DNA from: an uncultured bacterium
Lineage (GTDB): Bacteria; Acidobacteriota; Vicinamibacteria; Vicinamibacterales; UBA8438
Length of the DNA stretch: 64,000 bases
NCBI GenBank assembly: GCA_963934795.1
Contig: CAWWAF010000003.1
Location: forward strand, 2,029-66,028
Direction: 5' to 3'
The notes below the pieces were generated by a model. The model had not been told where the DNA came from. It did not search any database and saw only the letters and a list, made by a program, of their open reading frames with translations. Made by a program: the position numbers and the translations under genes. Positions 8,006 to 64,000 of the stretch are shown in pieces; the first letter of the stretch is position 1; every line of letters begins with the position of its first letter.

Positions 8006-8114
8006 TGCGCCGAAAGTGTGCCGCGTGGCGCGCCGCGGGATTATATCGTCACGGCTACGGCATGTGTTGACGGGGTGGGGTTGGTCGTCGCGTCCGGCGA
8101 TGGCACGACCGGTG

Positions 8115-36326: not shown

Positions 36327-36505
36327 GACTTCCCGGACGTCGCGGGACCTGCCTCGCGGCGCCGCCGGCCGGGGCAAGGATCTGCTGGCCCTGCCCTGAG
36401 GACCGTTCTACAATGGGACCACTAACAACGGGGATGCGCGTCCTCCCGGAAGACCGGCCACCACACGAATTGGTTGAGCGTCACTACGCGTTTATGGAGT
36501 CTGCA

Positions 36506-48682: not shown

Positions 48683-48896
48683 TTCACACTCCCTATACAC
48701 AACGTCCCGACGCCAACCCATGGTGGGTTGAGGCTGTCGGTCACCTAGCTTGCAGAAACGCTCCATTATGACCTGGACCGCACCGTCAGCTCAATCACCA
48801 AACCGACTCGGCTAGATGGTCTTTTGCCCCGTCGAGCGTCGGAGACGGTGACCCAGGGCGCGACAACGCCCGCCCTGGGTCAGCCCGATCCGAGTG

Positions 48897-51380: not shown

Positions 51381-52301
51381 TTACCTCGGTTCACCGGGCC
51401 GAGTGCCATCCCGTTCCTGAACGCGAGCGCCGCGTAACAGGTTCTCCATGCCGTAGTTCCCCTCGTGGCAGGCATATTCGTAGATCGGACCGTCGAACCG
51501 CGCCAGCGGAATCGACGCGGTCCAGGGGCCGGCGTAGGTGGTGGGGTCTTCGACGGTGTAGCGATGGTCGAGGGTGTTGGCGTCCACACGGGTGAAACGT
51601 TCGACCAGACGCAGGTTCGCGCCGGCCCCGGGGCAGCAGTTGTACGAGTTGAAGACGATCTGCTCGGCGAAGTTGGTTGTCTCGACCACCAGCGTGTCGC
51701 CATCCCATCGTCCCCGGGAATCGCCCATCCAGAGCCCGATGTCGCCATCGATGTGCGGCCGGTCGTCGAGTGGAATGATCCGGACCTCGTGAATCATCTC
51801 CTGCAGAATCGTTACGTAGCCGGGCGTCTGCAGAATCAAGAAATTGTTGTTGTACCCGCCGGGGCGCTTCGGTGCCCCTCGCGTCACGCAGCGCTCCGCC
51901 AGGTTCCGGTTGGTCCAGGAGTCGGCCCCACGCGCCCATTCGGCTCGAGCTTGTCCGTCCGCCGTGAATGCGGGTATTCGGCCGTCGGACGGGTCGATCA
52001 CCAGCGAGGTCTGCGTCAGGCGGGTGCCCCGCTCCCACCAAAATTCGTTGTAGGTACCGGGGTCCCCGGCCCGTGGCGGACGATCGTTGCGTCCGACCGC
52101 TTGGGCATCGAGCGTGGCCATTTCCTCATCGGTGAGTACGGTGCGGTTCGCCATGTCTGGCGGTCGTTCGAGCGGAGTCGTGGTCGAATTGGTCCACAGC
52201 CCGTGCAGATTACGCTGGCCGTCCGGCGTCAGCGGAGTTTGGGCGGCGACCCGGACGAACACACACAGGACGATGGCGACCAGCCAATAGCAGTTTTTCA
52301 T
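51381..52301 (-). CDS. secreted protein, 'EYACHEGN' paralogue family (P4)
   Basis: The internal ATG 52301 gives the signal peptide MKNCYWLVAIVLCVFVRVAAQ. Blocks TTPLERP, ERC, YNNNFLILQTPGYV, WMGDSRGRWDGDTLVVETTNF and YEYACHEGNYGMENLLRGAR. Confidence 0.6.
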   Translation of the reverse strand: MKNCYWLVAIVLCVFVRVAAQTPLTPDGQRNLHGLWTNSTTTPLERPPDMANRTVLTDEEMATLDAQAVGRNDRPPRAGDPGTYNEFWWERGTRLTQTSLVIDPSDGRIPAFTADGQARAEWARGADSWTNRNLAERCVTRGAPKRPGGYNNNFLILQTPGYVTILQEMIHEVRIIPLDDRPHIDGDIGLWMGDSRGRWDGDTLVVETTNFAEQIVFNSYNCCPGAGANLRLVERFTRVDANTLDHRYTVEDPTTYAGPWTASIPLARFDGPIYEYACHEGNYGMENLLRGARVQERDGTRPGEPR

Positions 52302-52309
52302 GGCACCCC

Positions 52310-53464
52310 TCAGGAAGAACGCGGCGATTGTCTCACCGCGACGTCGTCCGGCACGGATGCACTGGAATCTGGGGAACGGCGTGGGGGCTCCAGAGGCGAT
52401 GCCGGTTCGGTATGTCCGTCGGTTCCAGACAGGAAGCGGCGGATGTGTGGCGCCGCGAGCAGGCGACGGCCTTGCTCCCGACCCCGTTCGAATGTGCGCA
52501 TGATGACCACGGGATCGAAACACAGGAAGCCTGCCTCGACCACGTGGTCGGGATGGATGACCAGAAGTGTGCCGTCGGCGAGGGCGCGCGCGACGGACGG
52601 GTGGTCGTTCAACGCCCGCAGTCGCAGGCTCGTCTCCCAGAGGCGACCGTTTGGATCGCAACAGAAGACCACGGTGCGGGGCGTCGCCGTCCAGCGGGCT
52701 AGGCCCCGGAAACGGGCGTCGTCCTCGAAGATCGCCATGGGCATCTTCAGAGCGAACCCTCCGTCAACGAATATCGCCTGCCTATCGTTCGGGAACAAGC
52801 CGCCGGGCGAAAGCAGCGTCGGTTGGATCGCAGGCCCCATGGCCAGCGGCACCAGGCACGAGGCCTCGATAGCGCAGTGGTAGTTAGCCCGTGTGAGCGG
52901 CCGAACACACTCAGATTGCAGCGCGTCCGGGAGGTTGGTGGCGAACACGACCGGGTCCACCTGGTAGCGAGGCCGGTACTTTAGCCGCCCAGGAAGTTTG
53001 CGGGTGGCCGCCATCGCGAACAACTTGGTCAAATCGGCACGCCCCGGCGTCCGTCCGTCCAGGCGCCGAATCCGCGACGTGAACACGAGCAAGGTCCGCT
53101 GCGCCGACTCGTCGAACACGTCATCCACTTCGGGAGGCTCCATCACGTAACGGATGGACGCGTGCAGGTGCTTCCGAAAGCGGCTACGTGGCCACTCGTT
53201 CGCAACGAAGTCGGCGAGAGGATACCGCTTCGGGATCTCCGGAGCCCCCCAGACCGTCCAGCCTTTCAGTACCGTCGCCTCGCTGCCGGTGGCCACATCG
53301 GCGGCGGCATAGCCACCCGCCGACGCGCCCATCGCTATCGTGGGATAGCCCCCGTTCGTGCGCGTCCATCGCATCACTTCGTAGAGGACGCCACCTTGCC
53401 AGGCGCCGCGCCCGGCGCCGCCCGAGTCGAGAATCCAGGTGCAGGAGAAGGGCCTTGTCACCAT
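52310..53464 (-). CDS. patatin-like phospholipase family protein
   Basis: DSGGAGRG (oxyanion GGxRG), GASAGG (GxSxG) and VDGGF (catalytic Asp). The start ATG at 53464 overlaps the DASS gene stop (ATGGTGA). Confidence 0.8.
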   Translation of the reverse strand: MVTRPFSCTWILDSGGAGRGAWQGGVLYEVMRWTRTNGGYPTIAMGASAGGYAAADVATGSEATVLKGWTVWGAPEIPKRYPLADFVANEWPRSRFRKHLHASIRYVMEPPEVDDVFDESAQRTLLVFTSRIRRLDGRTPGRADLTKLFAMAATRKLPGRLKYRPRYQVDPVVFATNLPDALQSECVRPLTRANYHCAIEASCLVPLAMGPAIQPTLLSPGGLFPNDRQAIFVDGGFALKMPMAIFEDDARFRGLARWTATPRTVVFCCDPNGRLWETSLRLRALNDHPSVARALADGTLLVIHPDHVVEAGFLCFDPVVIMRTFERGREQGRRLLAAPHIRRFLSGTDGHTEPASPLEPPRRSPDSSASVPDDVAVRQSPRSS

Positions 53465-54870
53465 AGGCCAATCACCCGCCACCACAACCCGCCGATCACC
53501 GTCCAGATGACGATATTGATGACGCTGATGAGCGCCCCGAGTTGCCACCACGCCCCCAATTCGACGTAACCAGAGCCAAAGAACACCGGCGCGGGCCCAG
53601 TGCCGTAGTGACTCAGCCCGGCAAAGAGGTTGCTGAAGAACGCCAAGACGAGGGCGGCCAGGGCCGGCGGGGCCCCGGATGCGATAGCCATGGCCAGGAA
53701 TGCGGCGTACATGGCGACGACGTGGGCGGTGTTGCTGGCAAAAAAGTAGTGGCTGTAGAAATAGACAAGACTCAGGGCCAGGAGGGCCGGCACCCACCCG
53801 ATGCCCTCGACCATACCGCCCATCGTCGTGGCAAACCACGGGATCAGCCCGAGTTCGTTCAGGTAGTTGGCCATCATCACCAACGTCGAGATCCAGACGA
53901 GCGTGTTCCAGGCGCCCTGTTCCTGCAGGACGTCGTCCCACGTCAAGGTGCCACTCAAGAGGAGCAATGACAGACCAATGAACGCGGCGGTGGTCCCGGT
54001 GCCGTCGAGCCCGAGCGGTGCCCCGAAAATCCACAAGCTCAGCAGCAGCACGAACGTGGCGAGCATCGTCCACTCGTCGGGCTTGAGCGGGCCCATCTCG
54101 CGCAGCTGGGTGCGGGCGAGTTCCCTCGCGCCGGGCGTCTCTCGGATGCCGGGGGGGTAGACCGTATACAGAACCCACGGCATCACCGTGAGGCTCACCA
54201 GCCCTGGCACAATGGCCGCCAGCGCCCATCCACCCCATGTCAGTTGCACACCCGCGTCGCCAGCCAACCGCACGATAATCGGATTCGCCGCCATGGCGGT
54301 GACAAACATCGCGCTCGTGATCACGGTGCCCTGATAGGCCGTCTTCATCAGAAACGCGCCGATGGCACGTGCCGTCCCGTCGTTCGGGTGGCTTCCATAC
54401 GACCGGGCAATCGAGCCCACGATAGGAAAAATCACCCCAGCGGCACGGGCTGTATTGCTGGGCATGGCGGGCGCCAAGGTCAAGTCCGCCGCGACGAGGC
54501 TGTAGGCCAGGCCCAGTGACGTCTGCCCGCACGCCGCCATGAAGAGATAGGCGATCCGAGCCCCCAGACCGGTCTTGATGAAGCCACGAGAGATAAAGAA
54601 GGCGATCACGATGAGCCAGATCACTCGCTCGCCAAAACCGCTGACCGACTGCTCGATCGTGAGCGTGCCGCTGAGACTGGTCGCCGCGATGCCGAACAAG
54701 GCGACCGCACCCATCGGGTATGGGTTGGTGATGATGCCCACAATCGTGGCCACGAAGATGGCCAGGAGATGCCACGCTTGGGTGCCGACGCCGTCCGGGG
54801 GCGGGATGACCCACAGTACGACACCGACGGCCAGCGTGCCCGCCAGGCGTAGCGACCTACTCCGGTTCAA
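53458..54870 (-). CDS. DASS family (SLC13-like) sodium-coupled anion/dicarboxylate symporter
   Basis: 470 aa and polytopic. Contains PAMPSNTARAAGVIFPIV and a repeated hairpin motif pattern typical of CitT/SdcS-type carriers. Confidence 0.85.
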   Translation of the reverse strand: MNRSRSLRLAGTLAVGVVLWVIPPPDGVGTQAWHLLAIFVATIVGIITNPYPMGAVALFGIAATSLSGTLTIEQSVSGFGERVIWLIVIAFFISRGFIKTGLGARIAYLFMAACGQTSLGLAYSLVAADLTLAPAMPSNTARAAGVIFPIVGSIARSYGSHPNDGTARAIGAFLMKTAYQGTVITSAMFVTAMAANPIIVRLAGDAGVQLTWGGWALAAIVPGLVSLTVMPWVLYTVYPPGIRETPGARELARTQLREMGPLKPDEWTMLATFVLLLSLWIFGAPLGLDGTGTTAAFIGLSLLLLSGTLTWDDVLQEQGAWNTLVWISTLVMMANYLNELGLIPWFATTMGGMVEGIGWVPALLALSLVYFYSHYFFASNTAHVVAMYAAFLAMAIASGAPPALAALVLAFFSNLFAGLSHYGTGPAPVFFGSGYVELGAWWQLGALISVINIVIWTVIGGLWWRVIGLW

Positions 54871-55299
54871 GGTCCTGGCCGGGGTTCAGAGGCATCGGGA
54901 ACTGAAACGACTGGTTGTCGCGGCCCTCCGGACCTGCCCGGCGGGCCGCGACGCACCCTGACAGGGATGATAGACATCGAGCGGCCAGCCTCGCATGCCA
55001 TCGGCCGATGCCGTGCAGGCGTGGCTGGGAGGGCGGCGTGCCTCTGCATTCCGTTCGGGCCTTTCTCGATGACTTCCGGTCAACCGCGACCGTAAATTGC
55101 CATTTAGCAAGGACACGCACGATAGCAGATTTCAGAAGCGCGATCATCAGATCGGATCCGTCAATCCCCATCGACGGGAGATTGGCGCGTCGGCGCTCAC
55201 ATTGTGCCCCCCCACGCCTACCCCGCAGAACTCGTCGAGAGCCGCTATAATTGATGGACCATTACGGCCCATGAACGACTTCGACAAGGACCATCACTC

Positions 55300-56967
55300 A
55301 TGATTGCCACGCTCCGCACCGTCGCTGCCGCTCTGCTCGTCGCGGTCTTGCTCGCTCCCACTGTCCGCGCTGACGTCCTGTCGGTCGACATCAGTGAGCG
55401 GAGCCCCATTGAGGCCGGGAAGGGCTTCGGCGATGCCGGCCCTTACGAGGAAATCGTGGGACGGATCACCTTTGGGATCGATCCGACCGACTCCAAGAAC
55501 CAGGTCATTCTGAATCTGGATCGGGCACCCCGTAACGCGCAGGGTCTGGTCGAGGCGACCGCCGACTTGAGAATCCTCGCCCCGATTGACCAGAGTCGCG
55601 GCAACGGTGTCGCGTTGGTAGACATCGCCAATCGCGGCCGCATGTCGGCGCTGGGGTTCAACCGTGGCGGCAGTGGGCCGTACGGCGACGGGTTCCTGAT
55701 GAACCAGGGATACACAGCGGTCTGGATCGGCTGGGAGTTTGATGTGCCGGACGGTCGTCCCATCCGGTTCGAGGTGCCCTCCGTTGACGGCCTGCCGGTC
55801 GGTGGACTTGGCTTCGCGGCCGTTCGCGACACCACGGCCTGGATCAAGCATGACCCCGCTGCGCCCGTCAGCGCTGGGCACGCCCTGACGTTTGGCTCGT
55901 CCCAGAGTGGTCGCTTCCTTCGGACCTTCCTCTACCTGGGATTCAACACCGATACAGCGGGTCGGCAGGTCTTCGACGGGATGATTCCGCATATTGCCGG
56001 ATCGTCCCGACTGGACCTGAATGAGCCCGGCGCTGAGCCGATCACGCTCGGTATGTTCGACGCCACCTCGTTCCCCTTCGCGGATGCGGCGTTGCGTGAT
56101 CCGGTTACCGGCGTCGTCGACGGGACGCTGGGCAACGAGCGCAGCCGCGAGAATCAGCCGCACATCTTCTATACCAACACCGGCGTCGAATACTGGGGCG
56201 GCGGCCGCGTGGCCACGTTGGTGCACGCAACCCCCGACGGGACGACCGATCTCCCGTTGCAGGACAACGTTCGATTCTATTTCCTGGCCGGGACCCAGCA
56301 CGGGCCTGGCGCCTTCCCGCCTCCCCCTCCCGGCAACCGCCAGGAGATGGGCAACCCCACTGACTATTGGTGGAACATGCGGGCGTTGTTGACGTCGCTG
56401 AAGGACTGGGTGGTCGATGGTGTCGAGCCACCGGCCAGTCGCCACCCGCGGTTCGCCGACGGGAATCTGGTGTCACCGAAGCAGATTGCATTTCCGGCGA
56501 TACCTGACGTCCGCTCCCCGAGTGACCGCGAAGGCGGCACCAGATCGGCGAACCGGTGGCTGGAGGCGGCTTCTGGCGACGAAGGCACGGCGCTCCCGAT
56601 GTTCGTGCCCCAGGTCGATGCCGACGGTAACGAGACCTCCGGCATCCTTCATCCTGAGGTCGCGGTGCCACTGGCCACCTACACCGGGTGGAACTTCACG
56701 AACCCGGACAATGGCGATCCCAACACGCTGGTTTCCCTGGCTGGCTCCTACATCCCGTTCCCTGCCACGCGTGAGCAACGTCAGCGCACCCGTGACCCGC
56801 GGCCGTCCATCGAAGAGCGCTACGACTCCCGTGAGGACTTCTTGACCCAGATCGAGACCGTGGGACGGGAACTGATTGGACAGCGATATCTTCTGGAGGC
56901 GGACCTGCCGGCCATCGTCGAGCGCGCCGCGGACCACTGGGACCTGCTCGTTGGCGCCAACGAATAG
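55300..56967 (+). CDS. secreted hypothetical protein (alpha/beta-hydrolase-domain-like)
   Basis: 555 aa with a signal peptide. The N-terminal region ...GDAGPYEEIVGRITFGIDP...LRILAPIDQSRGNGVALVDIANRG resembles proteins I recall as annotated 'alpha/beta hydrolase domain-containing'. I could not verify a catalytic triad. Confidence 0.45.
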   Translation: MIATLRTVAAALLVAVLLAPTVRADVLSVDISERSPIEAGKGFGDAGPYEEIVGRITFGIDPTDSKNQVILNLDRAPRNAQGLVEATADLRILAPIDQSRGNGVALVDIANRGRMSALGFNRGGSGPYGDGFLMNQGYTAVWIGWEFDVPDGRPIRFEVPSVDGLPVGGLGFAAVRDTTAWIKHDPAAPVSAGHALTFGSSQSGRFLRTFLYLGFNTDTAGRQVFDGMIPHIAGSSRLDLNEPGAEPITLGMFDATSFPFADAALRDPVTGVVDGTLGNERSRENQPHIFYTNTGVEYWGGGRVATLVHATPDGTTDLPLQDNVRFYFLAGTQHGPGAFPPPPPGNRQEMGNPTDYWWNMRALLTSLKDWVVDGVEPPASRHPRFADGNLVSPKQIAFPAIPDVRSPSDREGGTRSANRWLEAASGDEGTALPMFVPQVDADGNETSGILHPEVAVPLATYTGWNFTNPDNGDPNTLVSLAGSYIPFPATREQRQRTRDPRPSIEERYDSREDFLTQIETVGRELIGQRYLLEADLPAIVERAADHWDLLVGANE

Positions 56968-56992
56968 CGAGTAGCGGCCCACCATTGTCATC

Positions 56993-57835
56993 GTGTCGAT
57001 TACGGGACCACTGACGGACCCCGACGAGCTGGCCAAGCACCTGGGCCGGCCGGGCGTTGTCGTGTTGGACGTCAGGCGTGGCGAGCGATTCGCGACGGCA
57101 CACCTGCCCGGCGCGAGACACTTCAGTGTCTACGGCATCAACACCTATGACACCGATGAGTCATCGCTACGGTCGTTCGTGCGGATGTGGGCATTCCAAC
57201 TGAACCTGGCGGGAATTAGACGGGACGATACGGTGGTCGTGTGCGGCGACTACAGTGACGAGCCCGCCGCCCGCGCCTACTGGTTCTTGAGATACCTCGG
57301 ACATCCGGAGTGTGCGCTGCTGGACGGTGGGTTGACCGGGTGGGCACGCGCCGGACACCAGACAGAACAGGCGGCGGCGGTTCCCCTCCCAACCTCCTAT
57401 CGGTACACCGTAGTCGATGCGCTGGTCGCCAATTGGCGCCAAGCCGGGGCCGCCGGACGCGACGCCACCGCGGTGTTGCTCGACACCCGTAGCGACGAGG
57501 AGTGGTACGGACACGATGGCCGGGGAGCCGAGCGCGCGGGCGCCATGCCGGGAGCCGTGCATCTCGAGTGGACGCACCACTTGGGCGAAGACGGGCGGTT
57601 CAAGTCGCCCCGCATGCTGTCGGCCCTGTTTGAGGATGTTGGTGCCACGCCGTCGGCACCCGTGGTGGCCTACTGCAATACCGGCTACCGGTCGGCCCAC
57701 GCCTGCCTCGCGCTCGAGTTGGCTGGCCACGTGCCGGCCCGCAACTACGTGGGCTCGTGGCAAGAGTGGGGCAATCGGTCTGAGTGTCGGGTGGTCCGGC
57801 CGTCTCCACGCGGCGGCGCTGCGCCGCTGGCCTAG
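56993..57835 (+). CDS. rhodanese-domain sulfurtransferase (thiosulfate/3-mercaptopyruvate type, two domains)
   Basis: Tandem rhodanese architecture with the active-site loop YCNTGYRSAH. GTG start. Confidence 0.8.
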   Translation: MSITGPLTDPDELAKHLGRPGVVVLDVRRGERFATAHLPGARHFSVYGINTYDTDESSLRSFVRMWAFQLNLAGIRRDDTVVVCGDYSDEPAARAYWFLRYLGHPECALLDGGLTGWARAGHQTEQAAAVPLPTSYRYTVVDALVANWRQAGAAGRDATAVLLDTRSDEEWYGHDGRGAERAGAMPGAVHLEWTHHLGEDGRFKSPRMLSALFEDVGATPSAPVVAYCNTGYRSAHACLALELAGHVPARNYVGSWQEWGNRSECRVVRPSPRGGAAPLA

Positions 57836-57869
57836 TCGCCAACGGCGCCCGGTCCTGTGCGGCGGTTGC

Positions 57870-58667
57870 CTACGAGAGCACGTCGATGATGCGTGGCACC
57901 GTCCCTCGTTCACCGAGGCGTACCGCCTTCGTGACCAGCGTCCCCACCACGGTGGGATAGCGAACGACGTGTGCGAGCGCCAGGACATCATCGTCCAGAC
58001 GGGCGATGCGACTCGCTTGGTCTTCGTCGCTCAGTGGCGCGAGGTGTTGGGCGACCGACCACGCGTGGTCGCGGGCCCGCTCCATGCTGAAGTTGATTAC
58101 CGCGGTGTCGACGTCTCCCAGATACCGGTTCAGTAGCCGCAACGTCGTCCAGATGCGCGCCAGCTCATCCTGAACCTCGCCGACCAGCGAAGCGAGAATC
58201 CCGTTTATTCGGTTGAAGTCCCCATGCAAGGCTGGCAACTGGGGGCCAGGTGCAACGCGGGCGGCGGCAATGCCGAGGTCCAGATTGATGTGTGCGTTGA
58301 TACCCAAGAGAAGGTGTTGCAGGACGATGGGCCACCATTGGTCCGTGACATCGAATGCACACTGCCACGACCGCGTAAGAGCGTCGCCCTCTCGATAGGC
58401 GTCGAACGCGTCCAGATACCGGCTGGCAAACAGGACGTCCAGCCGTTCCATGCGTGGGCCGTCGTCGAAGACGCCGTTCGCGATGCCATCCCGCACCTCT
58501 ATCGTGACCTTGCGGTAGAGCGCGGGAAAGTAACCCAGCCTCGACCCATCTGTTTTCGCGTCGTCGACGATGGTGGTCAGCCGACTGATGACGTCGTCAA
58601 TTGTGCGGGAAGTGGCGGTCATGGCGTGGTCGCAGTCTGCAACACCGGATCTTGGCATGGATGGCAC
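57870..58667 (-). CDS. hypothetical protein (DUF5995-like)
   Basis: 265 aa. The sequence YFPALYRKVTIEVRDGIANGVFDDGPRMERLDVLFASRYLDAFDAY matches my recollection of DUF5995. Unverified. Confidence 0.45.
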   Translation of the reverse strand: MPSMPRSGVADCDHAMTATSRTIDDVISRLTTIVDDAKTDGSRLGYFPALYRKVTIEVRDGIANGVFDDGPRMERLDVLFASRYLDAFDAYREGDALTRSWQCAFDVTDQWWPIVLQHLLLGINAHINLDLGIAAARVAPGPQLPALHGDFNRINGILASLVGEVQDELARIWTTLRLLNRYLGDVDTAVINFSMERARDHAWSVAQHLAPLSDEDQASRIARLDDDVLALAHVVRYPTVVGTLVTKAVRLGERGTVPRIIDVLS

Positions 58668-58817
58668 GGTCCGGCTACTGCGGGGCCGCAGACTGGCGGT
58701 TGACGCGATGGCGACCCAGGGCGGGTCCGCCCGTATAATGCGTCAGGGGCTCGACAGTTGGTCTGGGTCTCACGGTCGCCCCGCCACCTCCACAGGTCGG
58801 GCAGAGGAGTTGCATCG

Positions 58818-60152
58818 ATGGATCGCCCGGTTCACCGCGTCGTCAACCTGATCGAGGATGCCGACCAGCGCATTCTCAACATGACGGCCGACACGGCTCG
58901 GGCGTTGCTACTCGACGCCCGCCCAGACGCCATGCTCGATGTGCATGGGTCGTTCGCGCTGGCCGCTCGAGACGGCGAGACGGTGCTGATGGCTCGCAGT
59001 CTCGATCGGCCGATGCGGTATTTCCTGGCCAAAGAGACCGCCGGACCGATGCTCGTGATCGGGGAGCGGATCGACGACCTGAAACGCGTGCTCGATAGCC
59101 ACGGCTATGGGCATCAGTTTCATCCGAGTTACACGCGGATGGTGCCGGCTCATCACGTCACCGCCCTCCGGCTGATCGGGTGTCCGGACCCGACGCCGCA
59201 ACAACGCCGATTCTTCGCGCCGCCCCACGCTACGATGTCGACGGACCTCCAGGGCATCGGCGACTCGTATGTGGCGGCCCTGCACCATGAAGTGACCGAA
59301 TGGCTCGTGCGGCAACCGAAGACCGAGCCGATTGGGGTCTTGTTCTCGGGTGGCATCGACAGCGGGGCGATTCTGGTCAGCGTCTATCGCGCATTGCTCG
59401 ACAGCGGACAGAGTCCCAGCCGTCTGAAGGCGTTCACTCTGGCGGTCGATGGCGGTGGGGCCGACGTGGCACAGGCGCGTGAGTTTATGAGACGGCTCGG
59501 ATTGGAGATGTTGCTGGAGGTGGTTGAGGTCGCTGCGGAGCGTCTCGACCCGTTCGAGGCCGTCGAGGTGATAGAGGACTACAAACCGCTGGATGTCGAG
59601 TGCGCGACCGTGGGGCTGGCGTTGCTGCGTGGCATACGCGAGCGTTATCCCGACTGGCGCCTCCTGTTGGACGGCGACGGCGGCGACGAAAACCTCAAGG
59701 ACTATCCGATCGAAGAGAACCACGAACTGACCATCCGGAGCGTCGTCTCCAACTCGATGCTGTATCAGGAGGGGTGGGGCGTTGGTGCCATCAAGCACTC
59801 GCAGACCTACTCGGGTGGTTTGTCCCGTGGGTGCGTCCGGACCTTTGCACCGGCTCGTCTATTCGGGTTCGCTGGGCTGAGTCCGTTCGTGCGCCCGTCG
59901 GTCATCCAAGTCGCGGAGTCGATACCGTTTGGGACGCTTGCCGCCGGGTCGACCGAGGCCCTCTACGGCTTGAAGGGGGAGGTGGTGCGTCGCGGTATGC
60001 GCTCGTGCTTCGATCTGGACTTTCCCGTGTTCGAGAAGCGCCGGTTCCAGCACGGTGCCGTCGACGACGACGTCTTTCGCGGCCTGTTCGCCGTGCCTCC
60101 TGAACGGTACCGGGCCCACTTTCACTCCTTATACGGCCAGTCCGCGCCGTAG
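58818..60152 (+). CDS. asparagine synthetase-like ATP-pyrophosphatase (PP-loop), apparently lacking the N-terminal Cys nucleophile
   Basis: ATG 58818 is preceded by GAGGAG. PP-loop VLFSGGIDSGAI. The N-terminus begins MDRP, whereas glutamine-hydrolysing AsnB begins MC. This resembles beta-lactam synthetase or CarA-type relatives. Confidence 0.7.
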   Translation: MDRPVHRVVNLIEDADQRILNMTADTARALLLDARPDAMLDVHGSFALAARDGETVLMARSLDRPMRYFLAKETAGPMLVIGERIDDLKRVLDSHGYGHQFHPSYTRMVPAHHVTALRLIGCPDPTPQQRRFFAPPHATMSTDLQGIGDSYVAALHHEVTEWLVRQPKTEPIGVLFSGGIDSGAILVSVYRALLDSGQSPSRLKAFTLAVDGGGADVAQAREFMRRLGLEMLLEVVEVAAERLDPFEAVEVIEDYKPLDVECATVGLALLRGIRERYPDWRLLLDGDGGDENLKDYPIEENHELTIRSVVSNSMLYQEGWGVGAIKHSQTYSGGLSRGCVRTFAPARLFGFAGLSPFVRPSVIQVAESIPFGTLAAGSTEALYGLKGEVVRRGMRSCFDLDFPVFEKRRFQHGAVDDDVFRGLFAVPPERYRAHFHSLYGQSAP

Positions 60153-60167
60153 CCCCTCGGTAATCGC

Positions 60168-61133
60168 ATGGACGGCTGGGTGCGTTCGCTCCGGCGTTCG
60201 AAGGTCGTCAGGCCTTCCGATAGACCACTCGGGGTGGTGCACGAGCGGGAGCGTCGGCCCGCGGGTACGGTGGTCGACGCAACCACCGTCTTTCTGGCCG
60301 GCGCCGAGTGCCCCTTCAGTTGTGTGTTCTGCGATCTGTGGACGCACACGCTGACCGAACGGACGCCTCCCGGCGCACTCCCGCGTCAACTGGCCGGAGC
60401 GCTCGACACGATCGGACAGCGCTCGCTGATCAAGCTCTACAACGCGAGCAATTTTTTTGACCCGACGGCTGTGCCGCCAGCCGATGAGGCGGCGCTCCTT
60501 GGCCTGCTTGACGACTTCGCGCAGGTGACGGTCGAGTGCCATCCTCGGTTCATCGGCGACCGGTGCTTCTCGTTCGCCGACCGACTACAGGGGGCGCTTG
60601 AGGTCGCGGTCGGGCTGGAGACCGTGCACCCCGAGGCGCTGCCGCGCTTGAACAAGCGGATGACGCTGGCCGATTTCGATGCGGCCGCGTCAGCACTCGC
60701 GACGCGGAAGATAGCGCTTCGCGCGTTCGTGTTGCTCGGGTGTCCCTTTGTTGCAGACGAGGAGCAGCTCGACTGGACCCTTCGTTCGGTGTTGCATGCG
60801 GCTGCGGGTGGCGCCGGAACGATCTCCATCATTCCGGTGCGCGGCGGAAACGGTGCGCTTGAATCCCTGGGCGCCGAAGGCCACTGGAATCCCGTGACCC
60901 TCGATCTGGTCGAGGAGACCTTCGACCAGGCATTGCGGCTCAATCTGGAGGATGCGGTGGTGCAGGTGGATCTCTGGGATCTCGAACGCCTGTCCGGTTG
61001 CGACCACTGTGCCGAGGCCCGCGTCAGTCGGCTGGCGGCGATGAATCTGAGCGGTCTGGAAGAGTCGCGCGTCGGGTGCGACTGGTGCGATGCCAGCCGC
61101 CAGGTTCCGGGCGCCCGATCCCGCGGTCTCTGA
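60168..61133 (+). CDS. radical SAM protein (small, Elp3/TIGR01210-like)
   Basis: CPFSCVFC = Cx3Cx2C with an aromatic residue before the third Cys. 321 aa. C-terminal extra Cys pairs (CDHC ... CDWC). Starts 15 nt after the upstream gene. Confidence 0.7.
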   Translation: MDGWVRSLRRSKVVRPSDRPLGVVHERERRPAGTVVDATTVFLAGAECPFSCVFCDLWTHTLTERTPPGALPRQLAGALDTIGQRSLIKLYNASNFFDPTAVPPADEAALLGLLDDFAQVTVECHPRFIGDRCFSFADRLQGALEVAVGLETVHPEALPRLNKRMTLADFDAAASALATRKIALRAFVLLGCPFVADEEQLDWTLRSVLHAAAGGAGTISIIPVRGGNGALESLGAEGHWNPVTLDLVEETFDQALRLNLEDAVVQVDLWDLERLSGCDHCAEARVSRLAAMNLSGLEESRVGCDWCDASRQVPGARSRGL

Positions 61134-61145
61134 CTCGCCCGCGAC

Positions 61146-62756
61146 ATGACCATGCGCTATGACGTGACGGTGATCGGGGCCGGATTCGCCGGCTCCCTGC
61201 TGGCTCGGCTGTTGGCGCTTCGTGGGCGCTCGGTGCTCCTGGTCGAGCGCGACGTGCACCCGCGTTTCTCCCTTGGCGAGTCGTCGACCCCATTGGCGGC
61301 GTTGTCGCTCGAGCGCCTGTCCGCGCGGTACCAACAGCCGGACTTGCGCGCACTTGCCGCGCACGGCCGCTGGCGAAGGGAGCTGTCCGGGCTTCGCTGC
61401 GGCCTCAAGCGCGGCTTTACGTTCTACCGTCATCGGCCCGGCGAGCCGTTTCCCACTACCCAGACGCACGAGGCTCGGATGCTGGTGTCGGCGAGCCCAG
61501 ACGCGGAGGTAGCCGATTGTCAGTGGCTGCGTGCCGACGTGGATACGCACATGGTCGAGCGGGCCCGCGCCGCCGGTGCTGACTATCGCGACCGTTTCGA
61601 GGTGGTCGGGGTGGAGCGGACTGGGGAGCGCCTCCGTCTGCGCGGGCGGTACGGGGGTGAGGACGTCGAGATCGACGCGGGATTTCTGGTCGATGCGTCT
61701 GGCGTCGGAGAAGTCCTCGCGCGGGCGTTCGGAGTCGAACACGAGGCGTCCGAGCCCGATTTCTCGAGTCGACTCCTGTACGGACACTTCGAGGGGGTGA
61801 GGCCGTTCGCCGAGGTGGCAGCCGGCGACGGGGCCACGCTGCCGACGGGCCCCTATCCTGACGACTGGGCTGCCGTCCATCACCTGCTGGACGAGGGCTG
61901 GATGTATGCGTTGCGGTTCGACGACGGGCTGGTGAGCGCGGGCCTCCTCCTCGACGATGCGGCGGTCGTCTCTGGCGCCAGCGCGGGCGACCCCGAGTTG
62001 CGGTGGCGCACGGTGCTGTCGCGGTACCCGACGCTCGAATCAGCATTTGCGGGCGCCCGGCCGCTGCCGCCGGGAATACGGGCGACTGGCCGTCTTCAGC
62101 GTCGGCGGCGGACAGCCGTAGGCGAGCGCTGGGCGATGTTGCCCCAGACGTTCGCCTTCTTCGACCCGCTGTTCTCGACCGGTCTCGCATGGAGCCTGCT
62201 CGGCGTCGAGCGGTTGGTAATCGCTCTCGAGACCGGCCGTCCCACGTCTCAATCGCTGGGCGAGTATGACGCGCTGTTGCGGGCCGAGGCGGACCAGCAA
62301 CAGGCGCTGCTCGCGGCCGCCTACGCCGCCCGTCGTGATTTTCGCGTCTTCCGAGATATGTCGTTCCTCTACTTCGCGTGCGCCAGCTTCGAGGAGCTGC
62401 GGCAGCGTTTGCTCGATGGTTCCGATGAGGTCGATTCCTCCGAGCCATCGGGCGGGCGAGATTCGGCCGCGTGGCGCGGATTTCTCGGCGCCGGCGACAC
62501 GAACTGGGCCGCGTTGTGCGGTCAGGCGCTGGGCATGGTCCGTGCGACCGTGGCAGAAGGTTCCGATGACGCCCGGCGACGATTTTCGGAGTGGGTGGCC
62601 ACGCGGATCGCATCCCGCAACGTCGTGGGACTCGGTGAGTCGCCCACGCATCTGTATGGGGTCGACGTAGACCTGTTGGTGAAGCGCGGAGGCCTGCTTG
62701 GATTGACGGAGACCGAGGTCGAGGAGCGGCTACCTCGCTTGCGCGGTGGCCCCTAA
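61146..62756 (+). CDS. FAD-dependent oxidoreductase (halogenase/geranylgeranyl-reductase-like fold)
   Basis: N-terminal YDVTVIGAGFAGSLLARLLALRG...LLVERD and GESS. EGWMYALRF sits in place of the halogenase WxWxIP motif, so halogenase activity is not supported. Confidence 0.75.
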   Translation: MTMRYDVTVIGAGFAGSLLARLLALRGRSVLLVERDVHPRFSLGESSTPLAALSLERLSARYQQPDLRALAAHGRWRRELSGLRCGLKRGFTFYRHRPGEPFPTTQTHEARMLVSASPDAEVADCQWLRADVDTHMVERARAAGADYRDRFEVVGVERTGERLRLRGRYGGEDVEIDAGFLVDASGVGEVLARAFGVEHEASEPDFSSRLLYGHFEGVRPFAEVAAGDGATLPTGPYPDDWAAVHHLLDEGWMYALRFDDGLVSAGLLLDDAAVVSGASAGDPELRWRTVLSRYPTLESAFAGARPLPPGIRATGRLQRRRRTAVGERWAMLPQTFAFFDPLFSTGLAWSLLGVERLVIALETGRPTSQSLGEYDALLRAEADQQQALLAAAYAARRDFRVFRDMSFLYFACASFEELRQRLLDGSDEVDSSEPSGGRDSAAWRGFLGAGDTNWAALCGQALGMVRATVAEGSDDARRRFSEWVATRIASRNVVGLGESPTHLYGVDVDLLVKRGGLLGLTETEVEERLPRLRGGP

Positions 62757-62810
62757 GCACGGCCCCTGGCCGTCGGCACGACAGTACGTCACGAGGTCTG
62801 GTGTATCGCC

Positions 62811-63758
62811 CTATTCCGTGACGGTGACGGTCACGTCGTAGGACACATCGAGCGCACCGTCAGCGGCGAGACACCGGAGGACATAGGTTCCGGGGGCGGT
62901 GAAGGTGGCCTCGGTGGTGAAGGTCCCATCCGCGGGCGGCTCCGGATTGATGAAGTGCGGGGCCCATGGAGAGTAGGCGCCGGTCCGGGTGTCTTCCCAC
63001 ACACTGACCTGAGGTGGCTCGAAGTCGACCGCATTCGCTCCGCGGTAGAGAAACCATGACACGCGCAGGCCCGTTTCGGTGTTCACGGTGACCCGGGCGC
63101 TGGGTCGCCAACGTCGCGTCAGGGTCGGGTCGAACCGCGCGAACCGCTTGCGGGGCGACTCCGGCACGCCGTCGTCCTCTGAGATCGCCGTCAGCACGAG
63201 CGGTTCGCCTACGCGAACCGTGCGACTCATCCCACCGTCCACCTGGAGGGTCGGCCCCGTATTGGCACGAATCTTCGGGCTGCTCGTCCCGGCTCCGATG
63301 GCGCCGTTCTCTGAGGCCCGTACCATCGAGTCGACGAAGTAGTCCTGGCGCAGCGTTGCGTAGGCCCGCTCCGTCACCCCGTTGACGGTGAGTGTCCAGA
63401 CCAGTTCATCGTCAACCGCGAACTCGTCGGGCACCGGCACCCGGAACACGAACCGGTTGCGCCGGGGCTGAAAAAGGGTCGGTTGCCCAAGGTCCGGACC
63501 ACCCGGCTCCATTGCGTTGTCCGGGCCGACCGGAATGGTTGGGGTTTCTTCCCAGTTGCGGTTCATGTATCCGAACAAGAAGTGACGCGAGCCGTCCACG
63601 TCTTCCTCCCAACCCTCGTAGGCCGGCGAGATGTTCTGATCGGTGGAATACGTCAATCGCTGCGCGTCCGCCGCAGCGGGAGCGAGGATGACCAACGCCA
63701 ACAAAAGCGCGCCCAAGGTGTGCGCTGCTGGAACGCGATGGGTGAGGCAGCCGTTCAT
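62811..63758 (-). CDS. secreted hypothetical protein with C-terminal Ig/PKD-like domain (copy 2 of 46203..47195)
   Basis: Signal peptide. Colinear with copy 1. C-terminal GTYVLRCLAADGALDVSYDVTVTV. Confidence 0.55.
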   Translation of the reverse strand: MNGCLTHRVPAAHTLGALLLALVILAPAAADAQRLTYSTDQNISPAYEGWEEDVDGSRHFLFGYMNRNWEETPTIPVGPDNAMEPGGPDLGQPTLFQPRRNRFVFRVPVPDEFAVDDELVWTLTVNGVTERAYATLRQDYFVDSMVRASENGAIGAGTSSPKIRANTGPTLQVDGGMSRTVRVGEPLVLTAISEDDGVPESPRKRFARFDPTLTRRWRPSARVTVNTETGLRVSWFLYRGANAVDFEPPQVSVWEDTRTGAYSPWAPHFINPEPPADGTFTTEATFTAPGTYVLRCLAADGALDVSYDVTVTVTE

Positions 63759-63801
63759 GGGTTTCGTCCTTGTCCCTGTCTATGCGTCGTGACAATCGAC
63801 C

Positions 63802-64000
63802 TCACTGCTGTGCCGCGGTCTCAGCGGTTTCTCCCGCGGCGCCATCCTGGGCGTCCTCTTCAGTCACATCCGCGATGGTCAGATCGTCATACGGGCACAG
63901 CGGGCAGCCGATGACGTGGTCACCGGTTCTCCAGCCGATCGCCTGACGACGCTCTTCCATCTGCTCGAGGAACTGCTCGTCAGACAGCTTCACCCCAATA
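63802..64000 (-). CDS. 3' end of a second haem-c/Cu-monooxygenase-like gene (partial, runs off the window)
   Basis: ...IGVKLSDEQFLEQMEERRQAIGWRTGDHVIGCPLC... aligns with the C-terminus of 47195..48682 (...LGYAVELTEEQFQGEMADRRAAMKDRNEYDVGCPLC...). The reading frame stays open to the window edge. Confidence 0.5.
   Translation of the reverse strand, partial: IGVKLSDEQFLEQMEERRQAIGWRTGDHVIGCPLCPYDDLTIADVTEEDAQDGAAGETAETAAQQ

What the first reader, a model, noticed from the sequence alone, without database searches (positions are those of the whole stretch)
58818..62756. Tight three-gene operon: Cys-less asparagine-synthetase-like ATP-pyrophosphatase, small radical SAM enzyme, and large flavoprotein
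The intergenic gaps are 15 and 12 nt. Gene 1 has the AsnB PP-loop (SGGIDSG). Its N-terminus begins MDRP, whereas glutamine-hydrolysing AsnB begins with the catalytic Cys2. This resembles adenylating amide or lactam-forming relatives such as beta-lactam synthetase, CarA and lasso cyclases. Gene 2 has Cx3Cx2C (CPFSCVFC) plus two C-terminal CxxC pairs, which may bind an auxiliary cluster or zinc. Gene 3 is a 536-aa FAD enzyme of the halogenase/GG-reductase fold without the WxWxIP halogenase signature. I found no precursor peptide, transporter or regulator immediately adjacent. This looks like a compact tailoring or biosynthetic cassette for a small molecule or modified cofactor that I cannot identify.
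Basis: partly seen in the sequence, partly recalled or inferred. Interest (0 to 1): 0.65.

Follow-up and report, generated by a model that had tools for sequence, protein, structure and literature searches.

The report
Conserved AsnB-like/radical-SAM/halogenase-like operon
Three tightly packed genes (an ATP-using amide-forming enzyme that lacks its usual nitrogen-supplying cysteine, a radical SAM enzyme most like the archaeal archaeosine enzyme RaSEA, and a halogenase-type flavoprotein) form an operon kept together in over a hundred uncultured soil and marine bacterial contigs, but its product is unknown and I found no description of it.

Summary
The operon is real. The order g1-g2-g3 is kept in 23/23 species-representative genome loci (Vicinamibacterales, Thermoanaerobaculia, Gemmatimonadota, Planctomycetota). 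In 80 metagenome loci, g1 precedes g2 in 69/71 testable cases and g3 follows in 63/69. No other neighbour, small ORF, riboswitch, transporter or regulator is conserved. The core is therefore the g1+g2 pair, and g3 is a frequent accessory.

- **g1** is a very divergent two-domain AsnB-fold enzyme (best structural match beta-lactam synthetase). Its adenylation motifs are intact, but it has no N-terminal Cys.
- **g2** is a bacterial sister family of archaeal RaSEA. All 32 diverse members hit TIGR01210 best, none near its cut-off, and MnmL is the second hit. Both relatives cleave a C-N bond to unmask an -NH2 group.
- **g3** is a PltM/CtcP-type flavin-dependent halogenase homologue (E 1e-39). The catalytic Lys is invariant, but WxWxIP is altered to WxYxL[P/R].

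No curated family, solved structure or paper assigns the trio a function.

My best hypothesis (about 0.3): g1 ligates an amine donor to a carboxylate, g2 trims that donor by radical chemistry to leave an amide, and g3 halogenates or hydroxylates an aromatic ring. The substrate is unknown. RNA or protein substrates are not excluded.

The parts
58804..58809 (+). GAGGAG ribosome-binding site 8 nt before the g1 ATG. It lies in the 150-nt divergent intergenic region (58668-58817) shared with the DUF5995 gene.
   Evidence: Sequence read. No sigma-70 consensus promoter and no Rfam element were found here.
58818..60152 (+). g1: a 444-aa Cys-less AsnB-superfamily PP-loop adenylating enzyme (two-domain AsnB fold).
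   Evidence: Pfam Asn_synthase matches aa 169-302 only, E 2.6e-12. TIGR01536 scores 42 bits against a cut-off of 267. The AF2 model has pLDDT 83. The Foldseek top hit is beta-lactam synthetase 1mbz (E 1e-13, TM 0.61, about 470 aligned columns), followed by ASNS, CarA and TsnB9. All 8000 scored candidate proteins (90%-identity cluster representatives) were significant; the best 120 listed are at least 64% identical.
59343..59366 (+). g1 PP-loop FSGGIDSG (aa 176-183).
   Evidence: S177, G178, G179, D181 and S182 are invariant in 38 sequences. The motif aligns with SGGLDSS of human ASNS.
59670..59690 (+). g1 motif DGDGGDE (aa 285-291), aligned with SGEGSDE of asparagine synthetase. D287 sits where AS-B has its Glu348 (residue role recalled from memory).
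   Evidence: The motif is invariant; alignment to ASNS. It is followed by a nearly invariant stretch of about 40 residues (aa 295-333) that has low pLDDT and is probably a mobile lid.
60036..60038 (+). g1 K407 in the invariant K-R-R-F-Q-x-G-A. It resembles the KEQFSDG motif of E. coli AS-B that holds Lys449 (motif recalled from memory, not tested by a tool).
   Evidence: K407, R409, F410, Q411, G413 and A414 are invariant. The correspondence to AS-B K449 is my inference.
60168..61133 (+). g2: a 321-aa radical SAM enzyme belonging to a bacterial sister family of archaeal RaSEA.
   Evidence: The best NCBIfam hit is TIGR01210 RaSEA (E 3e-15, 56 bits against a cut-off of 212). All 32 diverse family members hit it best (best E 2e-33), and 11 also hit MnmL. 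The AF2 model has pLDDT 92. The Foldseek top hits are Elp3, LipA and viperin. The profile finds 472 50%-identity clusters at E<=1e-30.
60309..60332 (+). g2 CX3CX2C (CPFSCVFC, aa 48-55), the site for the radical SAM [4Fe-4S] cluster.
   Evidence: C48, C52 and C55 are invariant in both alignments.
60999..61088 (+). g2 C-terminal CxxC...CxxC (C278, C281, C304, C307), probably a Zn or auxiliary Fe-S site.
   Evidence: C278, C281 and C304 are in all 36 close members and C307 in 28 of 36; in the 32 diverse members each is kept in 26-28. The metal identity is not testable here.
61146..62756 (+). g3: a 536-aa flavin-dependent halogenase-family protein of the PltM/CtcP clade.
   Evidence: phmmer against the PDB gives CtcP 6.4e-39 (aa 4-349) and PltM 2.7e-37 (aa 4-413); ChlB4, CndH, CmlS and PltA are weaker. 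JGI names homologues 'FADH2 O2-dependent halogenase'. Three of three sampled homologues at 48-50% identity lie in the same trio.
61176..61193 (+). g3 GxGxxG (GAGFAG, aa 11-16), the FAD-binding motif.
61407..61409 (+). g3 K88 in CGLKRGFTF, aligned with catalytic Lys87 of PltM (ACGIKLGFSF).
   Evidence: Alignment. The PltM K87A mutant is inactive, and the published mutagenesis primer spells out the motif (PMC6424973). K88 is invariant in 22 loci.
61899..61916 (+). g3 WMYALR (aa 252-257), at the position of the halogenase WxWxIP motif (WLWVIP in PltM, WMWIIP in CtcP).
   Evidence: Relatives have W-x-[Y/W]-x-L-[P/R].

Best explanation
**Shown.** The three genes are one operon that encodes a concerted pathway. 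Its obligatory core is the g1+g2 pair, and g3 is an add-on present in about 90% of loci.

**Inferred mechanism.**
1. g1 keeps the adenylation machinery of the asparagine-synthetase superfamily but has no glutaminase nucleophile. It activates a carboxylate of a substrate already present in the cell as an acyl-adenylate. It then couples that adenylate to an amine donor (an amino acid such as lysine or glycine, or a second amine) rather than to glutamine-derived ammonia.
2. g2 belongs to the RaSEA/MnmL branch of radical SAM enzymes. Both characterised members of that branch remove the carbon skeleton of an amino-acid adduct by C-N cleavage to leave a free -NH2. g2 trims the newly attached group by 5'-deoxyadenosyl-radical chemistry and so unmasks a primary amide (or amidine-like) function. 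In this reading, g1+g2 are a bacterial, ATP-driven counterpart of the archaeal ArcS-RaSEA couple. g2 replaces the missing glutaminase domain of g1.
3. g3 is a PltM/CtcP-type FADH2/O2-dependent enzyme with the catalytic Lys but a relaxed WxWxIP motif. It halogenates (or possibly hydroxylates) an electron-rich aromatic or heteroaromatic ring of the same molecule.

I take the substrate most likely to be a free small metabolite or cofactor precursor. Its identity is unknown.
For: **Operon and synteny**
- Gaps are 15 and 12 nt.
- The order g1-g2-g3 is kept in 23/23 genome loci across three phyla.
- In metagenome loci, g1-g2 is kept in 69/71 and g2-g3 in 63/69 testable cases.
- g1+g2 occur without g3 in L050, L058, L079, L088 and L101.

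**g1**
- It has a full-length AsnB fold.
- The PP-loop, DGDGGDE and K407 motifs are invariant.
- No Cys occurs before residue 122, and Pfam finds no glutaminase domain.

**g2**
- RaSEA is the best curated family for all 32 diverse members, and MnmL is second.
- RaSEA converts preQ0-Lys to archaeosine and forms a complex with ArcS. ArcS uses lysine, not NH4+, Asn or Gln (PMC11298593).
- MnmL/YhcC converts cmnm5s2U to nm5s2U (bioRxiv 10.64898/2026.05.18.725915).

**g3**
- It matches CtcP and PltM at E about 1e-39 and 1e-37, and the Lys87 equivalent is invariant.

**Favouring a small-molecule substrate**
- The closest relatives of g3 act on free phenolics.
- Pfam and NCBIfam find no RNA-binding, RiPP-recognition or SPASM domain.
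- All three proteins are acidic, pI 5.2-5.8.
- No precursor ORF is conserved.
Against: - No substrate or product is identified; the mechanism rests on analogy.
- g2 is only distantly related to RaSEA (56 bits against a cut-off of 212), and radical SAM subfamilies often change chemistry.
- The best structural match of g1 is beta-lactam synthetase, an intramolecular cyclase. g1 could also simply use free ammonia.
- All characterised relatives of g2 (RaSEA, MnmL, Elp3) act on tRNA, not on small molecules.
- g1 is extremely conserved: at least 64% identity in the best 120 of many thousands of relatives, with a nearly invariant 40-residue loop. That pattern fits a macromolecular partner or substrate as well.
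- The altered WxWxIP motif leaves open whether g3 halogenates at all.
- A physical g1-g2 complex was not tested.
Confidence: 0.3

Rival explanations
1. RNA (tRNA or rRNA) nucleoside modification pathway. g1 adenylates a carboxylated or oxo nucleobase substituent and attaches an amine. g2 acts like RaSEA or MnmL on the RNA-bound adduct. g3 oxidises or halogenates the base.
For: - The nearest characterised relatives of g2, by HMM (RaSEA, MnmL) and by fold (Elp3), are all tRNA-modifying enzymes.
- PP-loop ATPases and FAD enzymes are common in tRNA modification (established knowledge).
- The operon stands alone in variable genomic contexts without a transporter or regulator, as housekeeping modification genes do.
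- g1 is very strongly conserved.
Against: - Pfam and NCBIfam find no RNA-binding domain such as PUA, THUMP or TRAM in any of the three proteins.
- All three are acidic.
- g1 is AsnB-type, not TilS/QueC/ThiI-type.
- The only strong homologues of g3 are small-molecule phenol halogenases, and no RNA halogenase is known.
- No tRNA gene or tRNA-modification gene is linked to the trio.
Confidence: 0.2
2. Small-molecule natural-product cassette in which g1 is an intramolecular lactam-forming cyclase (like beta-lactam synthetase or CarA). g2 performs an unrelated radical step, and g3 halogenates. The product would be a halogenated lactam or signalling molecule.
For: - Beta-lactam synthetase and CarA are among the best structural matches of g1.
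- Both are Cys-less AsnB homologues that need no nitrogen donor (established knowledge).
- g3 belongs to a natural-product halogenase clade.
Against: - The residue aligned with the asparagine-synthetase motif Glu is Asp in g1. From memory, the lactam synthetases have Tyr there.
- phmmer detects no sequence similarity to beta-LS or CarA at E<=1.
- No scaffold-building gene (PKS, NRPS, ThDP enzyme), transporter or resistance gene is ever linked.
- The high conservation and breadth are unusual for secondary metabolism.
Confidence: 0.15
3. Maturation system for a protein or peptide encoded elsewhere. g1 would form an isopeptide or amidate a carboxylate, as lasso cyclases do. g2 would cross-link or modify a residue. 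g3 would hydroxylate or halogenate Trp or Tyr, as QhpG, LodB or peptide halogenases do.
For: - g3 gives weak NCBIfam hits to QhpG (2.7e-12), GoxB and LodB, and g1 a very weak hit to lasso cyclase (0.008).
- FG-GAP/UnbV_ASPIC genes are the immediate neighbour of the trio (within 350 nt) in 18 of 111 loci; two checked carry an N-terminal signal-like segment.
Against: - No small ORF is conserved next to the trio.
- There is no leader peptidase, RRE, SPASM domain or exporter.
- The FG-GAP association is mostly confined to one lineage (15 of 19 cases fall in one 70%-identity cluster), and it is absent from the window.
- The halogenase hits of g3 are far stronger than its QhpG and LodB hits.
Confidence: 0.1

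Closest known systems
ArcS-RaSEA (archaeosine synthesis in Euryarchaeota; RaSEA = NCBIfam TIGR01210)
   Same: g2 and all 32 sampled members of its family match RaSEA best. As with arcS/RaSEA, the radical SAM gene is almost always paired with one specific partner enzyme that installs a nitrogen-containing group without using glutamine.
   Different: - Scores are far below the family cut-off (56 against 212 bits).
- The family is bacterial, not archaeal.
- The partner is an ATP-dependent AsnB-fold enzyme, not the ArcTGT-like, ATP-independent ArcS.
- There is no PUA domain and no link to preQ0 or TGT genes.
- The substrate is unknown.
MnmL/YtqA/YhcC (TIGR01212), radical SAM demodification of cmnm5s2U to nm5s2U
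   Same: It is the second-best curated family for g2 (11 of 32 members, best E 1.4e-7). It performs the same type of reaction as RaSEA: removing the carbon skeleton of an amino-acid adduct to leave -NH2.
   Different: The similarity is weak and partial (aa 119-210). No MnmE, MnmG or MnmM genes are in the context.
Asparagine synthetase B superfamily, especially the Cys-less members beta-lactam synthetase and carbapenam synthetase
   Same: g1 has the two-domain fold over its full length (TM 0.61-0.62), the PP-loop and the SGEGSDE-like motif. Like beta-LS and CarA, it lacks the N-terminal Cys.
   Different: - Sequence similarity is marginal (E about 4e-3, and only aa 166-296).
- The N-domain is shorter but highly conserved.
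- A unique, nearly invariant insertion or lid of about 40 residues spans aa 295-333.
- Asp occupies the position of the asparagine-synthetase motif Glu.
- g1 is always paired with a radical SAM enzyme.
Phenolic flavin-dependent halogenases PltM (6bza) and CtcP (7xgb)
   Same: g3 is about 30% identical over 350-410 residues (E 1e-37 to 1e-39). It has GxGxxG, the catalytic Lys in the G-x-K-x-G-F-[ST]-F motif, the FxDPLFSxG motif, and part of the PltM-type helical C-terminal region.
   Different: WxWxIP is WMYALR here and WxYxL[P/R] in relatives. No flavin reductase or polyketide genes are nearby. g3 sits in a conserved three-gene operon rather than a biosynthetic gene cluster.
Tryptophylquinone-cofactor maturases QhpG, LodB and GoxB
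   Same: These are flavoproteins of the same broad fold that work with a radical SAM enzyme (QhpD) on a protein substrate. g3 gives weak NCBIfam hits to them.
   Different: Scores are far below the cut-offs (46 against 240 bits for QhpG). No substrate-protein gene (qhpC, lodA or goxA) is linked.

Membership tests
Glutamine-hydrolysing asparagine synthetase (AsnB, TIGR01536) | N-terminal nucleophile Cys (Cys2 of the precursor) and a class II glutaminase domain | tested here: not met
   g1 starts MDRP. No Cys occurs before residue 122 in 38 family members. Pfam detects no GATase domain.
Glutamine-hydrolysing asparagine synthetase (AsnB, TIGR01536) | Score above the curated family cut-off | tested here: not met
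   42.1 bits against a cut-off of 267.1.
AsnB superfamily (PP-loop synthetase domain, two-domain fold) | SGGxDS PP-loop, the SGEGSDE-type motif, and the two-domain AsnB fold | tested here: met
   FSGGIDSG and DGDGGDE are invariant. Pfam Asn_synthase scores 47.5 bits against a cut-off of 21. Foldseek matches beta-LS, ASNS, CarA and AS-B at E 1e-13 to 1e-11 over about 460 columns.
Beta-lactam synthetase / carbapenam synthetase | Catalytic Tyr-Glu dyad and Lys443 (established knowledge, recalled from memory), plus detectable sequence similarity | tested here: inconclusive
   These are among the best fold matches, but phmmer finds no hit at E<=1. The position aligned with the AS-B motif Glu is Asp287. 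No residue-level alignment to beta-LS was available.
Lasso peptide cyclase (NF033535) | Score above the cut-off, with an adjacent precursor peptide and leader peptidase | tested here: not met
   14.7 bits against a cut-off of 525. No conserved small ORF or peptidase lies next to the trio.
Radical SAM superfamily | CX3CX2C cluster motif in a partial TIM barrel | tested here: met
   C48, C52 and C55 are invariant. The confident model matches Elp3, LipA, viperin and MiaB. The window protein scores 19 bits on PF04055, below the gathering score of 29.5, but many homologues carry precomputed PF04055 hits.
RaSEA (TIGR01210, equivalog) | Score above the curated cut-off of 212 bits | tested here: not met
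   56.2 bits for the window protein. The best E-value among 32 diverse family members is 2.1e-33, which is still far below the cut-off.
RaSEA (TIGR01210, equivalog) | Partnered with ArcS, archaeal, and acting on preQ0-Lys in tRNA | tested here: not met
   The partner is AsnB-like in 69/71 loci. The organisms are bacteria. Activity is not testable here.
SPASM/twitch RiPP-maturing radical SAM enzymes | C-terminal SPASM or twitch domain with auxiliary clusters, plus an RRE | tested here: not met
   No SPASM or RRE model is hit in Pfam or NCBIfam. The C-terminus has only a CxxC...CxxC motif.
Flavin-dependent halogenases | GxGxxG FAD motif and significant similarity to characterised halogenases | tested here: met
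   GAGFAG is present. CtcP scores 6.4e-39 and PltM 2.7e-37.
Flavin-dependent halogenases | Catalytic Lys (PltM Lys87) | tested here: met
   K88 aligns with PltM K87 (K87A is inactive). K88 is invariant in 22 loci.
Flavin-dependent halogenases | WxWxIP motif | tested here: not met
   The motif is WMYALR in the window and W-x-[Y/W]-x-L-[P/R] in relatives.
Flavin-dependent halogenases | Halide-dependent C-H halogenation activity | not testable with these tools
   This needs an enzyme assay with FADH2, O2 and halide.
Geranylgeranyl reductase family (TIGR02032) | Full-length match above the cut-off | tested here: not met
   46.8 bits against a cut-off of 158.8; the best-scoring stretch covers only the FAD-binding N-terminus, aa 5-40.
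Known anti-phage defence systems (PADLOC) | A hit to any PADLOC model | tested here: not met
   No hits for any of the three proteins.

The most novel reading that the evidence does not exclude
The g1+g2 pair is a previously unrecognised way of making amides (or amidines) in bacteria without glutamine or free ammonia. An AsnB-fold ligase has lost its glutaminase and attaches a whole amino acid to an adenylated carboxylate. A RaSEA-type radical SAM enzyme then burns off the amino-acid skeleton, so the amino acid serves as a sacrificial nitrogen donor. This would extend the ArcS-RaSEA/MnmL logic from tRNA to a widespread bacterial metabolite or cofactor. In most lineages that product would also be ring-halogenated by a dedicated PltM-like enzyme.
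Probability: 0.2. Interest if true: 0.8.

Novelty: new variant of a known kind. Interest (0 to 1): 0.6.

Why it matters
- **Abundance.** The cassette is common in uncultured soil and marine Acidobacteriota and Gemmatimonadota and occurs in at least one Planctomycetota genome. All 8000 scored g1 relatives (90%-identity cluster representatives) were significant, and g2 has about 470 clusters at 50% identity. Public annotation says only 'asparagine synthase', 'radical SAM protein' and 'FAD-dependent oxidoreductase/halogenase'.
- **Testable prediction.** It gives a concrete function to test for a bacterial sister family of RaSEA, and for an AsnB-fold enzyme that lacks its nitrogen-delivering domain.
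- **If the sacrificial-amine mechanism holds.** It would be a new solution to amide nitrogen transfer. It would also show that RaSEA/MnmL-type C-N cleavage is a general radical SAM reaction class beyond tRNA.
- **If g3 truly halogenates.** A conserved, near-housekeeping halogenation step in major soil phyla would matter for natural organohalogen cycling.

Tried and rejected
- **Riboswitch or leader RNA upstream of g1.** Nothing in Rfam at E<=1 for window 55000-64000, and nothing at gathering score in 22 related loci except two unrelated tRNAs.
- **Precursor peptide.** No small ORF is conserved upstream of g1 or downstream of g3 beyond near-identical genomes. None was apparent in the longer intergenic gaps of L013 and L002.
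- **A fourth conserved gene.** All-against-all clustering of ORFs in 24 and then 107 loci found no family beyond the trio in more than 6 loci.
- **Anti-phage defence.** No PADLOC hit.
- **Plasmid-borne or annotated relatives.** No tblastn hit for g2 in PLSDB.
- **Literature.** Nothing was found on this trio, on TIGR01210 in bacteria, or on the combination AsnB-like + radical SAM + halogenase. A 2026 preprint on sponge acidobacterial halogenase clusters concerns AMP-binding enzymes and is unrelated.
- **Apparent fusions.** P0380 (g2 + FG-GAP/ASPIC) contains an internal signal-peptide or lipobox-like segment, so it is probably a read-through of two genes. P0371 (g2 + the g3 N-terminus) ends in frameshifted sequence. 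Neither counts as evidence.
- **Expression data.** Only DNA metagenome runs hold the sequence, so co-transcription could not be checked.
- **Promoter and terminator scans.** Results are at chance level.
- **Alternative TTG start of g1 at 58758.** Rejected from homologue N-termini.
- **Geranylgeranyl-reductase reading of g3.** Rejected because only the FAD motif matches.

Full report
**Observation**

g1 runs 58818-60152, g2 60168-61133 and g3 61146-62756, all on the + strand. Reading the junctions confirms gaps of 15 and 12 nt. The stop of a convergent gene lies 54 nt after g3. A GAGGAG ribosome-binding site sits 8 nt before the g1 ATG. Homologue N-termini (M-[DE]-[RQK]-P...) support that ATG rather than the upstream TTG at 58758. 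All quoted motifs are present:
- FSGGIDSG in g1.
- CPFSCVFC plus CDHC and CDWC in g2.
- GAGFAG in g3, with WMYALR where halogenases have WxWxIP.

The window closely matches a marine Vicinamibacterales (Acidobacteriota) MAG, at 92-98% amino-acid identity in L001. The sequence itself occurs in seawater and marine metagenome runs.

**Is it a unit?**

A scan of one genome per GTDB species returned 24 loci. All 23 that hold a full g2 have g1 directly upstream and g3 directly downstream, in the same order and strand. They come from Vicinamibacterales, Thermoanaerobaculia (including Ca. Multivoradales), Gemmatimonadota and a Planctomycetota MAG.

A metagenome scan with a divergent g2 alignment returned 80 more loci with g2 identity down to about 41%. 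g1 is immediately upstream in 69 of 71 loci that have room to test. g3 is immediately downstream in 63 of 69. Three further g3 homologues at 48-50% identity, looked up independently, also sit in the trio.

The flanking genes of the window are shared only with the closest relatives: Abhydrolase_10, rhodanese, DUF5995 and a 315-aa secreted protein. Clustering of all flanking ORFs found no other family in more than 6 of 107 loci.

The exceptions are informative:
- L050, L058, L088, L079 and L101 keep g1-g2 but have unrelated genes in place of g3.
- L095 has g2 alone.

So the trio is a real operon. g1+g2 is its obligatory core and g3 is a frequent accessory.

**g1**

Only residues 169-302 match Pfam Asn_synthase. 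Curated AsnB and lasso-cyclase models score far below their cut-offs. The best sequence match to any solved structure is human ASNS at E about 4e-3, over the PP-loop core only.

An AlphaFold model (pLDDT 83) nevertheless superposes over about 460 columns on beta-lactam synthetase (E 1e-13, TM 0.61), ASNS, carbapenam synthetase, E. coli AS-B and TsnB9. g1 is therefore a complete two-domain AsnB-fold protein.

The family has no Cys before residue 122, so it cannot hydrolyse glutamine the way AsnB does. The adenylation machinery is invariant:
- The PP-loop.
- DGDGGDE, aligned with SGEGSDE of ASNS.
- K407 in KRRFQxGA, which resembles the KEQFSDG motif around AS-B Lys449. That correspondence is from my memory of the AS-B sequence and was not tested by a tool.

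The residue aligned with the motif Glu is Asp. By my recollection, that position is AS-B's catalytic Glu348 and the lactam synthetases carry Tyr there.

A nearly invariant stretch of 40 residues (aa 295-333) has low model confidence and is probably a mobile lid. Conservation is extreme. All 8000 scored candidates were significant, and the best 120 were at least 64% identical.

**g2**

The model is confident (pLDDT 92). It is a generic radical SAM partial barrel, closest to Elp3, LipA and viperin. No solved structure matches by sequence.

The closest curated family is RaSEA (TIGR01210):
- The window protein scores E 3e-15 (56 bits against a cut-off of 212).
- All 32 diverse members of the family hit it best, with a best E of 2e-33.
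- Eleven members also hit MnmL/YtqA.

A profile search of 1.84 billion representatives found 472 clusters at E<=1e-30. g2 is therefore a sizeable bacterial sister family of RaSEA, not RaSEA itself.

What the two relatives do matters here.
- RaSEA converts the lysine adduct preQ0-Lys into archaeosine. It works in a complex with ArcS, which uses lysine rather than NH4+, Asn or Gln as the nitrogen source (PMC11298593).
- MnmL/YhcC removes the carboxymethyl group of the glycine-derived cmnm5s2U to leave nm5s2U.

Both reactions cleave a C-N bond so that only the nitrogen of an amino acid stays on the substrate.

**g3**

g3 is clearly a member of the flavin-dependent halogenase family. It matches CtcP at 6e-39 and PltM at 3e-37, the latter over residues 4-413. 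Matches to ChlB4, CndH, CmlS and PltA are weaker.

K88 in CGLKRGFTF aligns with PltM Lys87 in ACGIKLGFSF. The K87A mutant of PltM is inactive (PMC6424973). K88 is invariant in 22 loci.

The WxWxIP motif is relaxed to W-x-[Y/W]-x-L-[P/R]. It is therefore open whether the enzyme halogenates or hydroxylates. Geranylgeranyl-reductase hits are confined to the FAD-binding N-terminus, and QhpG/LodB hits are weak.

**What it is not**

- No riboswitch.
- No conserved precursor ORF.
- No defence-system model.
- No plasmid homologue.
- No informative source annotation beyond generic names.
- No paper describing it.

**Mechanistic proposal**

The shown facts are the operon, the g1+g2 core, a Cys-less but adenylation-competent AsnB fold, a RaSEA/MnmL-related radical SAM enzyme, and a Lys-bearing halogenase homologue. 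The following steps are inferred.

1. g1 adenylates a carboxylate and couples it to an amine donor.
2. g2 trims the donor by radical C-N cleavage to leave a primary amide. It thereby stands in for the missing glutaminase domain, as RaSEA completes the ArcS reaction.
3. g3 modifies an aromatic ring of the same compound.

I favour a small-molecule substrate for four reasons:
- The relatives of g3 act on free phenolics.
- The proteins are acidic.
- Pfam and NCBIfam find no RNA- or peptide-recognition domain.
- No precursor ORF is linked.

I put this hypothesis at about 0.3. The rivals are:
- An RNA nucleoside modification pathway (0.2). It is supported by the tRNA substrates of all g2 relatives and by the housekeeping-like genomic behaviour.
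- A beta-LS-like lactam natural product (0.15).
- A protein or peptide maturase (0.1).

**Novelty**

All three superfamilies are known. I found no characterised member for these subfamilies, for their obligatory pairing, or for the AsnB-like + RaSEA-like logic. I rate it a new variant of a known kind, with interest 0.6. It would rise to about 0.8 if the sacrificial-amine amidation were shown.

Noticed in passing
Related loci, e.g. L064 3645-5522 (-), L084 3822-7160 (-), L075 4099-7479 (-), L110 5808-9278 (-), L061 228-1964 (-), L092 4681-6465 (-), L079 8984-10666 (+), L108 8682-13555 (-). None in the window.: Large FG-GAP/UnbV_ASPIC (CRTAC1-like) genes, some with TPR repeats, lie in the flanks of 31 of 111 loci and within 350 nt of the trio in 18. 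They are either convergent after g3 or divergent before g1. In L079 one follows g2 in place of g3. The density is 0.72 per 10 kb of flank. Of 19 adjacent cases I classified by arrangement, 15 fall in one 70%-identity g2 cluster (Gemmatimonadaceae-like) and only 5 of 51 clusters show the association. It may be lineage-specific neighbourhood rather than function.
   Followed up: partly
L050, L058, L088, L079, L101 (g1-g2 without g3); L095 4348-5298 (g2 alone, next to an RTX-repeat protein): Variants of the cassette lack the flavoprotein. In L058 and L088, g2 is followed by a hexapeptide-repeat transferase, a DCC1-like thiol-disulfide oxidoreductase, and (seen in L088) LpxK and a lipid A acyltransferase. 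In L101 it is followed by a peptidase S58 gene. In L050 it is followed by a convergent glycine dehydrogenase gene.
   Followed up: partly
L001 6979-8590 (closest MAG, CALLXD010000053.1): The g3 homologue in the closest public genome matches in two pieces in different reading frames (aa 1-431 at 6979-8277, aa 432-535 at 8279-8590). This is a frameshift relative to the window, due either to an assembly error or to a disrupted gene.
   Followed up: no
window 62811-63758 (-); L001 8653-9597 and 9657-10487; L003 2404-3252 and 3390-4238: The convergent neighbour of g3 is a 315-aa protein with a hydrophobic, signal-like N-terminus and no Pfam or NCBIfam match. In L001 and L003 it is present as two tandem paralogues about 73-76% identical to it. 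The window ends before a second copy could be seen.
   Followed up: no
L002 3379-3833: In this related acidobacterial MAG, the rhodanese and DUF5995 genes that flank the operon in the window survive only as short fragments (35-61 aa matches) between the Abhydrolase_10 gene and g1. This suggests gene decay or deletion next to an intact operon.
   Followed up: no
P0380 (896 aa) and P0371 (450 aa), from the representative library: These are two apparent fusions of g2. P0380 joins g2 to an FG-GAP/ASPIC protein but has an internal signal-peptide or lipobox-like segment. P0371 joins g2 to the start of g3 and ends in out-of-frame sequence. Both look like gene-calling or sequencing artefacts.
   Followed up: yes
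window 34680-35402 (+), 53458-54870 (-), 56993-57835 (+): Several sulfur-related genes are scattered upstream of the operon: a TauE/SafE sulfite exporter, a Na+/sulfate (DASS) symporter, and a two-domain rhodanese of the 3-mercaptopyruvate sulfurtransferase type. They are not conserved next to the trio in other lineages.
   Followed up: no
window 36413-37339, 37412-38548, 40918-41913, 46203-47252, 47195-48766, 51381-52661: Six sizeable ORFs with coding-like GC3 have no Pfam match at E<=1e-4. The ORF at 51381-52661, as called from TTG, has an Arg/Pro-rich N-terminal extension, so the true start is probably further downstream.
   Followed up: no
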